A DNA stretch of 64,000 nucleotides, taken from the NCBI RefSeq assembly GCF_036507355.1, contig NZ_AP027877.1; one strand, given 5' to 3'. Made by a program: the position numbers. Below are positions 30,801 through 33,800 of the stretch, piece after piece (position 1 is the stretch's first letter; every line of letters starts with the position of its first letter). The stretch is from Escherichia coli (lineage in GTDB: Bacteria > Pseudomonadota > Gammaproteobacteria > Enterobacterales > Enterobacteriaceae).

Positions 30801-33800
30801 GTCATTGCTGGAAACGAAATATCAATTCCACCGGAAATCAACACCACAAACAAACCACAGGCGAGAATAGTCAACATGGCATAGTTATTGGCGAGATCGT
30901 ACAAATTACCGAATGTCAGAAACTCGTCGCTGCGCCAGGCAAGGCCAACAAACAGCACCACAATCAGTAATGCCAGCCAGAATTCATGGCTTTTTTTCAG
31001 TTCAGCCATTTACCACCTCCGCAATCCTGGCCTGAGAACTGCTGTCAGGCAGGAAGCTATGGGTGATCTGACCTTTTTGCATTACCAAAATCCGGTGGCT
31101 TTGATACCACGCTTCTTCAATTTCATCGCAGATCATCAATACCGCAATGCCATGAGCCGCCAGATCGCTGATAATGCCGTATATTCCTGCTTTGTTGGCG
31201 ATATCAACACCGACTGTCGGGCTATCGAGAATCAACAGTCGTGGCCCAATCGCCAGCCATTTGGCGATCGATACTCGCTGCGCGTTACCACCAGAAAGCG
31301 TATTCACCGGGAGATGAGGATCAGAGACTTTGATGGTCAATGCCTTGATTAGCCTGTCCACCAGGTCACGCACTTTAGTTTCACTCAGAAAGCCGAAGCG
31401 ATCTTTTACCTTGTGAAAAACAGTGCTAATGATGTTGTCTTCAATAGATTGCGCCATCACCAAACCGCGCGACATGCGATCTTCCGAAACATAACCAATA
31501 CCGTGGCGGATGGCGTCCTGGTTACTATGCAGTGTAACCGGCTGGCCGTTGATGAGGATCTCGCCAGCATCCGGTCGGGTCATACCAAACAGACTCAGAC
31601 ATAATTCCGTGCGCCCCGCACCAAGCAGGCCAACAATCGATACCACTTCGCCCGCTTCCACCCGCAAGTTAATATTTAGATATTCCCCATGACGACTTAA
31701 ATTACGCACCTCCAGCACCGGGGTGCTGGATTTTCCCTGCCACAACTCTCGCACCTGATATTCAAACTCCTGGCCGGTCATCAGAAAACTGAGTTGTTTT
31801 GTGGTCATCTCTGCAGCCGGAAAAGTCCCGACCAGCTCACCATCTTTCAGCACTGAAATACGGTCGGAAACTTCCATCACTTCTTCCAGACGATGACTGA
31901 CGAAGACCACGCAGATCCCGCGTTCACGCAATTGATGCACCACCTGTAATAACCCTTGCACTTCCTGATGGGTCAGCGAAGCGGTTGGTTCATCCATCAC
32001 GATCAACCGTGCGTCCTGCGCCAGTGCACGGCAAATAGCCACCAGCTGACAGCGGGCAATTGAAAGCTCAGAAACGAGTGTATCCAGTGGCAATGTGACG
32101 TTAATACTGGTCATTGCCGCCTGCGCCACCTCACGCAGACGACGGCGGTTAACAAACAGACCGTGGTGATAGTGATTCACGGCGATATTCTCCCAGACAC
32201 TCAGGTTAGGAAATAAAGAGAGGTCCTGATAAATCACCTGAATCCCCTGCGCCACCGAAGCGGCGGGTGTCAGCTTTGACCAGTTTTTCCCACCAAGCGT
32301 AATTTCCGCTCCCTCATCCGGGCGATAAACACCGGACATAATTTTAATCAACGTCGATTTACCACAGCCGTTTTGCCCGGCAAGGCAGTGCACTTCACCC
32401 GACATAAAGTCGAGAGAAACATCGCGCAGCGCTCGCGTGGCATGAAACGTTTTGTTGATATGACGAAGGGAAAGGAAGGTTTCCATAACATCCCCTGGCA
32501 ATAAGAATCGGGGCTTTCGCCCCGAAGAAATGGATTAATAAAGTGAGTCGATATTGTCTTTGTTGACCAGTAATACCTTATGGAAACGGATAATTCGCTT
32601 ATCCATATCTACGTCGGCCTTACCCAGATTCTGCATTTCTAATCCAGGTTTGATCTCTTCACCCTTCAGCAACGTACTGGCGACGGCTGCGAGTGCGTAA
32701 CCTGCAGAGGCCGGATCGTAAGTAATCCCTTCGGTGATATCACCACTTTTAATCAGTGATGCCGCCTGTGAAGGGATCATCATGCCATAGACTGCGACTT
32801 TATTTTTCGCCCGTTTCTCTTTCACCGCACGTCCCGCGCCAATCGGACCGTTTGAACCAAAGGAGACAACCGCTTTCAAGTCAGGATAGGTTTTCATCAG
32901 GTCCAGTGTGGTACGACGTGAGTCATCCACACTCTCGGCAACCGGCATGCGGCGGGTAACTTCATGCATATCCGGGTAATGCTCTTTCTGGTATTTCACC
33001 AGCAAGTCAGCCCATAAGTTATGCTGCGGCACGGTCAAACTACCCACGTAAATCACATAGCCGCCCTTGCCCCCCATGCGTTTCGCCATATGCTCAACAT
33101 ATTCAGCGGCAAATTTTTCGTTATCAATGATTTCAATATCCCAGTTAGCACTTGGCTGACCGGGGGATTCGTTGGTCAGAACCACAATTCCGGCATCTCG
33201 CGCTTTTTTGAATACCGGTTCCAGCACGTTGGCATCGTTTGGCACGATAGTAATTGCATTAACCTTACGGGCGATTAAATCCTCAATAATTTTGACCTGT
33301 TGCGGAGCATCAGTACTTGAAGGCCCCACCTGTGAGGCATTAACACCAAAGGCTTTACCCGCCTCAACCACACCTTCGCCCATGCGATTAAACCACGGCA
33401 TACCATCGACTTTAGAAATATTCACCACGACTTTTTCCGCTGCCTGGAGCGGCGCAGAAATTAGCGCAGCGCCTAATAACAGCGAAGACACCATATTGAT
33501 AACAAAACGTTTATTCATCATTTCAGCCTCATTGCAGGGTAGTCAGGAAGTGTTCGCCCAAATTAGCGCGCTGGAGAGAATAAGAATTTTCGAATATTTT
33601 TATGCAGAATAAACAGCTCTATTTCAGGCAGCTATTAAAAATATGGTTATAAATATGGACAAAACGGGCAGCAATAATAAGTGTGACATTCATCACGTAA
33701 AAAACAGCAAAATAAACAAAATTAGCGATATTTTATGTTTGTGAGCTTATTTCGTGTAGATAAATAGTTATCTATACAACGTCAATAAGGGCATATTCTT

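What the first reader, a model, noticed from the sequence alone, without database searches (positions are those of the whole stretch)
33682..33697. CRP-like site and intercistronic hairpin suggest catabolite control and differential expression in the ABC operon
TGTGA-N6-TCACG lies about 160 bp upstream of the binding-protein gene. A GC-rich stem-loop (32508-32525) directly follows that gene, the usual arrangement for making more binding protein than membrane components.
Basis: seen in the sequence. Interest (0 to 1): 0.3.

Follow-up and report, generated by a model that had tools for sequence, protein, structure and literature searches.

The report
CRP/AraC promoter and hairpin of aau
The CRP-like site and the hairpin are both real and conserved, but they belong to the already described arabinose-induced Aau sugar transporter of E. 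coli, whose promoter is built like the classic araBAD/araE promoters (CRP site plus two AraC half-sites), so this is a well-understood kind of regulation with some unreported detail.

Summary
Both observations are confirmed. TGTGACATTCATCACG lies at 33682-33697, 9/10 to the CRP core, the same score as the lac CRP site in this window. A 7-bp GC-rich GAAA-loop hairpin lies at 32508-32525, 9 nt after the binding-protein stop codon.

The operon is Aau (AauABCD; Z0415-19/ECs_0374-78), published in 2024-25. It is induced only by L-arabinose, needs AraC, and its binding protein prefers D-ribulose (PDB 9I1M). The published 308-bp reporter fragment maps to 33520-33827 and contains the site.

Eleven nt downstream of the CRP site are two 17-bp AraC-type direct-repeat half-sites 4 bp apart (I1 33654-33670, I2 33633-33649). 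A -10 TATTCT follows 21 nt later. This geometry is within 1-2 bp of araBAD and araE.

In representatives of 31 genera, 28 have a CRP core of at least 8/10 (4.4 expected). Twenty-six have the CRP-plus-TCCAT composite (0.01 expected). araC is adjacent in Pasteurellaceae and Budviciaceae.

All 31 genera have a stable hairpin after the binding-protein gene, with unrelated stems and covariation.

CRP dependence and an mRNA step at the hairpin remain untested. The case is ordinary: a new member of a known kind.

The parts
33682..33697 (-). CRP-like site. Gene-strand reading CGTGATGAATGTCACA, centre 33689.5. The strong half-site with flank, GTCACACTT, faces the promoter, as in araBAD.
   Evidence: Conserved in orthologues: column counts T19 G25 T27 G27 A26 / T25 C27 x C26 A25 of 27 genera. 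Statistics.
33654..33670 (-). AraC-type half-site I1: TGCC-CGTTTTG-TCCATA. The A-box TCCATA is perfect; the B-box matches TAGC at 2 of 4.
   Evidence: TCCAT is invariant or nearly so in 27 genera. The half-site rules come from PMC11983282. On its own it scores only 8/10, which is common by chance in the window (39 sites of at least 8/10).
33633..33649 (-). AraC-type half-site I2: TAAC-CATATTT-TTAATA. It is a direct repeat of I1 after a 4-bp gap (TTTA) and is expected to abut or overlap the -35 region.
   Evidence: The consensus across genera is TAGC-N7-TACATA. Klebsiella has TAGC-TGAATAT-TACCTG, compared with araI2 TAGC-GGATCCT-ACCTGA.
33606..33611 (-). Predicted -10 hexamer TATTCT, 21 nt after I2.
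   Evidence: TAnnnT occupies the same column in most genera (T20 A23 ... T23 of 27). Silvania has TACTGT, as in araBAD; Leclercia has TACTGT one base upstream of that column. The spacing equals that of araE. Inference; not mapped.
33598..33601 (-). Predicted transcription start (about 33599), giving a 5' UTR of roughly 80 nt.
   Evidence: Inferred from the -10 position only. No TSS data were available.
33520..33827 (-). Fragment equivalent to the published Paau (P_Z0415) lux reporter, which is arabinose- and AraC-dependent.
   Evidence: The primer sequences from PMC11127945 Supplementary Table 3 map exactly here. The O157 Sakai sequence is identical over all the elements.
32535..33518 (-). aauA, the periplasmic D-ribulose/L-arabinose binding protein (327 aa; an alternative ATG is at 33521).
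   Evidence: Matches PDB 9I1M chain A at E 1.8e-213. Pfam Peripla_BP_4. The published RT-qPCR primer matches.
32508..32525 (-). Intercistronic stem-loop UCGGGGC-GAAA-GCCCCGA, dG -14.3 kcal/mol.
   Evidence: A stable hairpin is present in the same spacer in 31 of 31 genera. Covariation.
32500..32507 (-). U-rich tail UUCUUAUU after the hairpin, which makes it terminator-like in E. coli.
   Evidence: A U-rich tail is not conserved in most other genera.
31002..32486 (-). aauB, the ABC ATPase (494 aa). It is intact here but truncated in O157 EDL933/Sakai.
   Evidence: The premature stop is described in PMC11127945.
30038..31009 (-). aauC, permease.
29085..30041 (-). aauD, permease.

Best explanation
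The site at 33682-33697 is the CRP-cAMP co-activator site of Paau, the promoter of the aauABCD (Z0415-19) transporter operon. Paau is an AraC-activated promoter of the araBAD/araE type. Read along the gene strand, the order is as follows.
- The CRP site.
- 11 nt of spacer.
- AraC half-site I1 (TGCC-N7-TCCATA).
- 4 nt of spacer.
- AraC half-site I2, which abuts the -35 region.
- 21 nt of spacer.
- The -10 hexamer TATTCT.
- A start near 33599.

With L-arabinose, AraC occupies I1 and I2 and recruits RNA polymerase. This step is shown genetically in the literature; the site assignment is inferred here. CRP-cAMP bound just upstream, roughly at -90 to -93, boosts the promoter when glucose is absent. 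That step is inferred from geometry and conservation.

The hairpin at 32508-32525, directly 3' of aauA, most likely yields more aauA mRNA than aauBCD mRNA. It would act as a barrier to 3'-5' exonucleases after cleavage downstream, as at malE-malF. In E. coli, where a U-rich tail follows, it may also act as a partial intrinsic terminator. This too is inferred.
For: Identity of the operon
- The SBP matches 9I1M.
- The published primers map to the window.
- The Sakai locus ECs_0374-78 lies between yahJ and yahK, and its promoter is identical to the window.

AraC and arabinose dependence
- Dependence of the 33520-33827 fragment is published in PMC11127945.

Promoter architecture
- The anchored alignment shows the elements.
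- The information profile shows conserved columns only at the CRP half-sites, the TAGC-N7-TCCATA and TAGC-N7-TACATA boxes and the TAnnnT -10 hexamer. Intervening columns carry no information.
- The genuine araBAD sequence and araE sequence show the same order. CRP centre to the first base of the -10 is 79.5 nt (araBAD), 80.5 nt (araE) and 78.5 nt (aau).
- The AraC half-site rules are taken from PMC11983282.

Statistics
- Among 31 genus representatives, 19 have a CRP core of at least 9/10 (0.29 expected) and 28 have at least 8/10 (4.4 expected).
- The CRP-plus-TCCAT composite occurs in 26 (0.01 expected).

Genomic linkage
- An araC orthologue lies immediately upstream of the SBP gene in Budviciaceae and in all Pasteurellaceae loci, and is nearby in Providencia.
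- araB follows the transporter in two genera.

Hairpin
- A stable hairpin is present in 31 of 31 genera, with dG -12.7 to -34 kcal/mol and a median z of -2.8.
- Among Yersinia/Serratia sequences, 95.8% of cells are paired, 5 pairs change on both sides, and 0 of 500 shuffles reach the covariation score.
- Across families, 5 of 8 pairs are compensatory.

Precedent
- The substrate-binding-protein (SBP) gene mRNA is stabilised by a 3' structure in malEFG. SBP genes were also the stabilised genes in four other E. coli ABC operons (PMC5927463).

Indirect expression data
- ECs0374 rises by log2 2.42 at the transition to stationary phase, as glucose is depleted. araC (+2.57) and ychH (+4.61) rise at the same point. 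Downstream genes are not listed in the main text.
Against: - No CRP binding, crp/cya or glucose experiment exists for Paau. The two Aau papers never mention CRP.
- The TSS is not mapped, so the -90 to -93 position is only a prediction.
- The CRP-to-I1 gap is 11 nt (12 in Pasteurellaceae) against 13 nt in araBAD and araE. That is about 70 degrees of helical rotation, so CRP could act differently or more weakly.
- The E. coli I1 half-site alone is not statistically distinctive. It scores 8/10, and 39 sites reach at least 8/10 in the window. Its B-box is off-consensus.
- No convincing distal O2-like half-site for looping was found.
- Paau is strongly induced in glucose-containing MEM-HEPES. The time course relative to glucose exhaustion is not given.
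- For the hairpin, the fold-changes with arabinose (Z0415 26.5x, Z0417 43x, Z0418 7x) do not show the SBP gene as the most induced. They are not abundances and come from a strain with a nonsense mutation in the ATPase gene.
- A U-tail is absent in most genera, so termination is not the conserved function.
- The genus representatives are phylogenetically related, so the shuffle statistics overstate independence.
Confidence: 0.7

Rival explanations
1. Simple catabolite-controlled promoter. CRP alone activates a class I or class II promoter for the ABC operon, with no specific regulator.
For: There is a good CRP core. No regulator gene lies in the E. coli island. ECs0374 rises at the transition to stationary phase in glucose minimal medium, without added arabinose.
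Against: The reporter fragment containing the site is silent without arabinose and in an araC deletion (PMC11127945). No conserved -10 lies at class I or class II distance. The only sigma-70-like match overlaps the CRP site itself (33701-33674) and is not conserved in other genera. The conserved -10 is 78.5 nt from the CRP centre, with AraC half-sites in between.
Confidence: 0.05
2. The CRP-like sequence is not used by CRP. It is a chance match or a relic, and Paau is controlled by AraC only.
For: No experiment addresses it. The expected number of one-mismatch matches in 64 kb is 1.67. The CRP-to-I1 spacing differs by 2 bp from araBAD and araE. Providencia and the Vibrio loci lack a good site.
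Against: Half-site columns are conserved in 25-27 of 27 genera while the spacer and flanks are random. Twenty-eight of 31 genera reach at least 8/10 against 4.4 expected. Within E. coli, a divergent allele changes the spacer (TGAATG to TAAGAA) but keeps both half-sites.
Confidence: 0.1
3. The hairpin acts mainly as a partial Rho-independent terminator or attenuator that lets only a fraction of polymerases continue into aauBCD. It is not primarily an mRNA-decay barrier.
For: In E. coli the stem is followed by UUCUUAUU, and the simple terminator scan reports it. Aeromonas, Providencia, Budvicia, Mannheimia and Chelonobacter also have tails with at least 4 U in 8.
Against: Most genera (Klebsiella, Franconibacter, Yersinia, Leclercia and others) have the hairpin without a U-tract. 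The conserved feature is therefore the stem-loop itself. Downstream genes are clearly induced by arabinose (Z0417 43x).
Confidence: 0.3
4. The hairpin has no role in stoichiometry. It could be incidental GC-rich filler, or it could modulate aauB translation by pairing of flanking sequence (UCCAU after the stop codon with AUGGA at the aauB start).
For: The minimum-free-energy fold of the spacer adds weak outer pairs that cover the aauB start region. The z-score of the E. coli spacer alone is only -1.7.
Against: Structure is conserved, with covariation and completely different stem sequences across four orders. The outer pairing is only 5 bp and was not tested for conservation.
Confidence: 0.1

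Closest known systems
E. coli araBAD promoter (P_BAD): CRP site, araI1 and araI2
   Same: The order of elements is the same: a CRP site, then two 17-bp AraC half-sites as direct repeats 4 bp apart, then the -10. The promoter-proximal CRP half with its flank is the same 9-mer, GTCACACTT. The I1 A-box TCCATA is identical. CRP centre to the -10 is 78.5 nt here and 79.5 nt in P_BAD. AraC and L-arabinose dependence is published.
   Different: The CRP-to-I1 gap is 11 nt, not 13. The I2-to-(-10) gap is 21 nt, not 20. The I1 B-box is TGCC, not TAGC. No divergent araC gene and no O1 or O2 sites were recognised, so DNA looping and repression are not evident.
E. coli araE promoter
   Same: CRP-like site + I1 (CAGC-AATTTAA-TCCATA) + TTTA + I2 (TGCT-GTTTCCG-ACCTGA) + 21 nt + TATTTT. 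The I1-I2 gap TTTA and the I2-to-(-10) distance are identical to Paau, and the string TCCATATTTAT is shared. Like Paau, it drives a transporter gene unlinked to araC.
   Different: The CRP-to-I1 gap is 13 nt against 11 nt. araE is a single-gene proton symporter with no intercistronic hairpin.
malE-malF intergenic protective structure (differential decay in ABC operons)
   Same: The binding-protein gene comes first and a stable stem-loop lies in the spacer before the membrane/ATPase genes. The expected outcome is more SBP mRNA than downstream mRNA (PMC5927463).
   Different: The malE-malF element consists of REP sequences (my own knowledge). Here it is a single 18-nt GNRA-loop hairpin present once in the window, with a U-rich tail. 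No decay or abundance data exist for aau.
Aau (AauABCD) transporter of EHEC, OI-17 (Cottam et al. 2024, 2025)
   Same: It is the same locus. The SBP matches 9I1M, the primers match, and it sits between yahJ and yahK.
   Different: Those papers establish arabinose/AraC dependence and D-ribulose binding. They do not describe a CRP site, AraC half-sites, a TSS or the aauA-aauB hairpin.

Membership tests
CRP-cAMP binding site | 16-bp core TGTGA-N6-TCACA with a 6-bp spacer | tested here: met
   9 of 10 core positions. This equals the score of the lac CRP site in the same window.
CRP-cAMP binding site | Half-sites conserved in orthologous promoters while the spacer varies | tested here: met
   Column counts in 27 genera. 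Twenty-eight of 31 genera reach at least 8/10 against 4.4 expected. A within-species spacer variant keeps both half-sites.
CRP-cAMP binding site | Centre at a helical-phase-compatible position relative to the TSS (-41.5, -61.5, -71.5, about -92.5) | tested here: inconclusive
   The centre is about -90.5 if the last T of TATTCT is at -7. The same counting gives -91.5 for araBAD and -92.5 for araE. The TSS is not mapped.
CRP-cAMP binding site | Bound by CRP-cAMP, and transcription depends on crp/cya and glucose | not testable with these tools
   Only indirect evidence exists: ECs0374 rises by log2 2.42 at the transition to stationary phase, as glucose is depleted (PMC2241611).
AraC-activated promoter (P_BAD / P_araE type) | Two 17-bp half-sites (TAGC-N7-TCCATA-like) as direct repeats separated by 4 bp | tested here: met
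   I1 is TGCC-N7-TCCATA, the gap is TTTA, and I2 is TAAC-N7-TTAATA. The arrangement is conserved in 27 genera. The rule comes from PMC11983282. Caveat: I1 alone scores 8/10, which is not rare by chance.
AraC-activated promoter (P_BAD / P_araE type) | Proximal half-site abuts the -35 region, with a -10 at fixed distance | tested here: met
   There are 21 nt from I2 to TATTCT, the same as araE and one more than araBAD.
AraC-activated promoter (P_BAD / P_araE type) | Transcription requires AraC and L-arabinose | not tested
   Not tested here. It is published for the identical fragment: the reporter is abolished in an araC deletion and complemented (PMC11127945).
AraC-activated promoter (P_BAD / P_araE type) | Distal operator half-site (O2-like) for repression by looping | tested here: inconclusive
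   No half-site of at least 9/10 lies within 600 bp upstream. The only candidates are a reverse-strand TCCATT at 33812 and an 8/10 site at 34515-34531. This feature defines P_BAD, not all AraC promoters.
Intrinsic (Rho-independent) terminator | GC-rich stem-loop directly followed by a U-tract | tested here: inconclusive
   Met in E. coli: 7 pairs, then UUCUUAUU. The U-tract is absent in most orthologues. Efficiency is unknown.
3' protective stem-loop for differential operon decay (malE-malF type) | Stable structure immediately 3' of the stabilised gene, conserved in evolution | tested here: met
   Present in 31 of 31 genera. Covariation.
3' protective stem-loop for differential operon decay (malE-malF type) | Upstream segment more abundant or longer-lived than the downstream segment | not testable with these tools
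   Only fold-changes are available. No abundance or half-life data exist.

The most novel reading that the evidence does not exclude
The Aau-type transporter, with its CRP + AraC I1-I2 promoter and its post-SBP hairpin, may be an old, vertically maintained member of the AraC regulon across Enterobacterales, Pasteurellaceae, Aeromonas and Vibrio. K-12-like E. coli would then have lost it by deletion. They still carry the 3' end of the upstream ASCH gene, a decayed spacer running up to the promoter-proximal CRP half-site, and the 3' end of aauD. Under this reading it is not an EHEC-specific, horizontally acquired island that secondarily 'hijacked' AraC.
Probability: 0.55. Interest if true: 0.4.

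Novelty: new member of a known kind. Interest (0 to 1): 0.3.

Why it matters
Aau contributes about 100-fold to competitive fitness of EHEC in the mouse gut (PMC11127945, PMC12307932). Knowing that its promoter combines AraC with a conserved CRP site predicts when it should be expressed: only when L-arabinose is present and preferred sugars are absent. That is relevant to when D-ribulose scavenging operates in the gut.

The element map gives exact bases to mutate. The conserved hairpin predicts excess binding protein over membrane components.

The comparative data also qualify the 'horizontally acquired island' view of this locus. None of this changes how AraC, CRP or intercistronic hairpins are understood.

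Tried and rejected
- Class I or class II CRP promoter models were rejected. I looked for -10 hexamers 30-35 nt and 50-55 nt downstream of the CRP centre. The candidates (CATATT, TATAAC, TTTAAT) are not conserved as -10 elements. The conserved TCCATA box turned out to be an AraC A-box.
- The one promoter-like hit of the scanner (TTTACG-16-TATTAT, 33701-33674) overlaps the CRP site and is absent in other genera, so it was rejected.
- I first read TATCCATATA...TATATGGATA in Acerihabitans, Sodalis and two MAGs as an inverted-repeat operator of an unknown regulator. It is better explained as I1 plus an I2 region with an extra reverse A-box.
- araUVWZ of Shewanella is a YtfQ-like system, not this one.
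- Rfam gave no match in 32300-33900.
- A consensus scan for AraC half-sites in the window is not discriminating, with 39 sites of at least 8/10. No O2-like site was established.
- The araJ upstream region (129 nt) gave no usable comparison.
- NCBIfam and Pfam alone did not identify the substrate: all equivalog models were below their cut-offs. The RefSeq name 'autoinducer 2 ABC transporter substrate-binding protein' is not supported by the published D-ribulose binding.
- Literature searches for locus tags found no CRP or ChIP data for this promoter.
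Full report
**1. The observation.** The window is E. 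coli chromosome. Positions 27-38 kb are the yahJ-yahK interval, which in about 40-60% of complete E. coli genomes carries five extra genes. These are an ASCH-domain gene and a four-gene sugar ABC transporter, all on the - strand:
- binding protein, 32535-33518;
- ATPase, 31002-32486;
- permeases, 30038-31009 and 29085-30041.

TGTGACATTCATCACG is at 33682-33697 and is the only exact TGTGA-N6-TCACG in the window. With one mismatch to the palindromic core allowed there are three hits against 1.67 expected. One of the others (5866-5881) is the lac CRP site, which serves as an internal positive control with the same 9/10 score.

The hairpin UCGGGGC-GAAA-GCCCCGA (32525->32508 on the gene strand; dG -14.3 kcal/mol) starts 9 nt after the TAA of the binding-protein gene. 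It is followed by UUCUUAUU and then the ATPase ribosome-binding site and ATG. Both observations are therefore correct as stated.

**2. What the operon is.** The binding protein matches PDB 9I1M chain A over its full length (E 1.8e-213). 9I1M is AauA, the binding protein of the 'accessory L-arabinose uptake' system Aau (Z0415-Z0419, O-island 17) of EHEC.

Published primers map exactly to the window. The Z0415 qPCR primer is at 33472-33493. The promoter-reporter primers are at 33810-33827 and 33520-33537. In O157 Sakai the locus is ECs_0374-0378 between yahJ and yahK. Its promoter region is identical to the window across every element discussed below.

The literature establishes several points.
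- The roughly 300-bp promoter fragment is induced only by L-arabinose. It is dead in an araC deletion and is restored by araC in trans (PMC11127945).
- AauA binds D-ribulose with KD 2 uM and L-arabinose with KD about 600 uM (PMC12307932).
- Neither paper mentions CRP, AraC binding sites, a transcription start or the aauA-aauB hairpin.
- Searches by locus tag found no other relevant work.

**3. The promoter.** I fetched 80 loci encoding relatives of the binding protein from one genome per species. They cover Enterobacterales, Pasteurellaceae, Aeromonas and Vibrio. All have the order binding protein then ATPase.

Nearly every orthologue with at least 65% identity has an 8-10/10 CRP core upstream. 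Anchoring on that site exposed a second conserved block 22-23 nt downstream, TCCATA.

This block is the A-box of an AraC half-site. The half-site rules are given in PMC11983282: xAGC-N7-TCCATA, with direct repeats 4 bp apart and the I1/I2 shared pattern TAGCxxxTxxxxCCxxA. The P_BAD sequence I used for comparison is 100% identical to E. coli genomes.

In the window the gene strand reads as follows:
- CRP site, CGTGATGAATGTCACA;
- 11 nt;
- I1, TGCC-CGTTTTG-TCCATA (33670-33654);
- TTTA;
- I2, TAAC-CATATTT-TTAATA (33649-33633);
- 21 nt;
- TATTCT (33611-33606).

Klebsiella has TAGT-N7-TCCATA TTTA TAGC-N7-TACCTG. Pasteurellaceae have TAGC-AGAATTT-TCCATA N4 TAAC-N7-TACCTA.

An information profile over 27 genera shows conservation only at four places:
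- the CRP half-sites (T19 G25 T27 G27 A26 ... T25 C27 x C26 A25);
- the two AraC half-sites;
- a TAnnnT hexamer 21 nt after I2 (TATTCT, TACTCT, TACAGT and TAAGAT, plus TACTGT as in araBAD in Silvania; Leclercia has TACTGT one base upstream);
- nowhere else, because the columns in between carry no information.

Among 31 genus representatives, 19 have a best CRP core of at least 9/10 (0.29 expected from dinucleotide shuffles). Twenty-eight have at least 8/10 (4.4 expected). Twenty-six have the composite of CRP plus 22/23 nt plus TCYAT (0.01 expected). The genera are related, so these are not independent trials. The randomised spacers nevertheless show that the conserved columns are under selection. 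Within E. coli, a divergent allele has a different CRP spacer but intact half-sites.

**4. Link to AraC beyond E. coli.** An araC orthologue lies immediately upstream of the binding-protein gene in five Budviciaceae loci (57-59% identity to E. coli AraC, full length). The same is true of all Pasteurellaceae loci (39-44%). In Providencia it lies at the downstream end of the locus on the opposite strand. araB follows the transporter in Chelonobacter and Testudinibacter. The Vibrio loci lack the CRP-I1-I2 layout but carry perfect AraC half-sites in reverse orientation. Membership of the AraC regulon is thus an old property of this transporter family.

**5. Comparison with known AraC/CRP promoters.** The element layouts are as follows.

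| Promoter | CRP-to-I1 gap | I1-I2 gap | I2-to-(-10) gap | -10 hexamer | CRP centre to first base of -10 |
|---|---|---|---|---|---|
| araBAD | 13 nt | 4 nt | 20 nt | TACTGT | 79.5 nt |
| araE | 13 nt | TTTA | 21 nt | TATTTT | 80.5 nt |
| Paau | 11 nt | TTTA | 21 nt | TATTCT | 78.5 nt |

The promoter-proximal CRP half with its flank, GTCACACTT, is the same in araBAD and Paau. With the usual -10 to +1 distance, the Paau start would be near 33599 and the CRP centre near -90.5. The same counting gives -91.5 for araBAD; from memory the literature quotes -93.5, so absolute numbers carry an uncertainty of about 2 bp. The 2-bp shorter CRP-to-I1 gap is the one real difference, and it is conserved (22 nt from CRP to TCCATA in Enterobacterales and Aeromonas, 23 in Pasteurellaceae). 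No O2-like distal half-site was established. The E. coli I1 taken alone is not statistically distinctive. The AraC-site call rests on position, orthology and the published genetics.

**6. The hairpin.** In all 31 genera the spacer between the binding-protein and ATPase genes contains a stable hairpin. dG ranges from -12.7 to -34 kcal/mol, the median z against dinucleotide shuffles is -2.8, and 22 of 31 have z below -2.

The stem sequences are unrelated between lineages:
- Escherichia, Klebsiella, Franconibacter and Symbiopectobacterium: CGGGGC(G)...(C)GCCCCG;
- Yersinia: GCAGAGCCGG...CCGGCUCUGC;
- Pasteurellaceae: AUAUGGGUUC...GAACCCAUAU;
- Aeromonas: GGUGGCGCC...GGCGCCACC.

Among 11 Yersinia/Serratia sequences, 95.8% of cells pair and 5 of 13 pairs show changes on both sides. 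Zero of 500 shuffles reach the covariation score, and sliding the partners destroys pairing. In a cross-family alignment, 5 of 8 pairs are compensatory.

U-rich tails occur in E. coli and a few genera only. The conserved feature is therefore the stem-loop, not a terminator. This fits the malE-malF paradigm and the genome-wide finding that SBP genes are the stabilised genes in E. coli ABC operons (PMC5927463). In E. coli, partial termination may add to the effect.

Direct evidence is lacking. The arabinose fold-changes are Z0415 26.5x, Z0417 43x and Z0418 7x. They are not abundances, and they come from a strain with a nonsense mutation in the ATPase gene. In Sakai grown on glucose, only ECs0374 of the operon is listed in the main text as rising (log2 2.42) at the transition to stationary phase. 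araC and the carbohydrate transport and binding-protein genes, which the authors link to release of catabolite repression, rise at the same transition.

The system itself is already known. The CRP site, the I1-I2 map, the predicted -10 and start, and the conserved hairpin appear to be unreported in the literature I could search. I therefore class it as a new member of a known kind, of modest interest.

A side result may interest that field. K-12-like genomes retain three things: the ASCH 3' end (33821-33750), a decayed spacer up to the CRP proximal half-site (to about 33678), and the aauD 3' end (from 29156). Absence of the 'island' is therefore a deletion.

Noticed in passing
window 5866-5881: TGTGAGTCAGCTCACT is the CRP site of the lac promoter (lacI|lacZ region). 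It differs from the K-12 textbook site by one base in the spacer. It was used as an internal positive control.
   Followed up: partly
window 33678-33821 and 29085-29156; L085 (K-12-like strain ET915): Genomes lacking aau still carry three relics. These are 72 bp of the ASCH gene 3' end (33821-33750, about 92% identical), a diverged spacer ending in ...ATCACACTTA (the promoter-proximal CRP half-site), and, fused to that, the last 70 or so bp of aauD. The aau-less state is therefore a deletion of about 4.5 kb, plus a second deletion in the ASCH gene. It is not an empty insertion site. About 2,800 of 5,426 genomes show this relic.
   Followed up: yes
L020, L021, L028, L037, L038; L040-L059, L075; L014, L016; L042, L043: araC orthologues lie directly upstream of the aauA orthologue in Budviciaceae and Pasteurellaceae, and at the downstream end on the opposite strand in Providencia. 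araB follows the transporter in Chelonobacter and Testudinibacter.
   Followed up: partly
L046, L048, L052 (Vibrio), about 100-150 nt upstream of the SBP gene: There are perfect or near-perfect AraC half-sites in reverse orientation (TATGGA-N7-GCTA) and no adjacent CRP site. The promoter layout differs for the same transporter.
   Followed up: no
L060-L081 (Citrobacter, Cedecea, Pluralibacter, Enterobacter, Serratia, Pantoea; 58-61% SBP identity): This is a paralogous group, probably the Rbl D-ribulose system of PMC12307932. It lacks the CRP-I1-I2 layout. Most of the 16 loci whose spacers of 88-117 nt were folded (L060-L073, L076) carry two consecutive GC-rich hairpins between SBP and ATPase genes; the spacers of L074 and L077-L081 (136-328 nt) were not examined.
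   Followed up: no
window 33757-33776: An AT-rich inverted repeat (TAGATAA-CTAT-TTATCTA) overlaps the stop codon of the ASCH gene. It is retained in the K-12-like relic. Its function is unknown.
   Followed up: no
window 25508-25523: A third one-mismatch CRP-like core, TGTGATCTCTCTCGCA, lies in the divergent yahO-yahN intergenic region, about 20-35 nt upstream of yahN.
   Followed up: no
window 31002-32486 versus L084:2400-3578: The ATPase gene aauB is intact in the window strain (494 aa). In O157 Sakai it is annotated as a shortened CDS, consistent with the premature stop reported for EDL933/TUV93-0.
   Followed up: partly
L004:7818-8156; L023:8605-8946: A 112-113 aa ORF directly follows the second permease gene in Klebsiella and Yersinia, with no Pfam match. 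It is absent in E. coli, where yahK follows.
   Followed up: no
window 32535-33518: RefSeq names this protein 'autoinducer 2 ABC transporter substrate-binding protein'. The LsrB and RhaS equivalog models score far below their cut-offs, and the published ligand is D-ribulose. The database name is misleading.
   Followed up: partly
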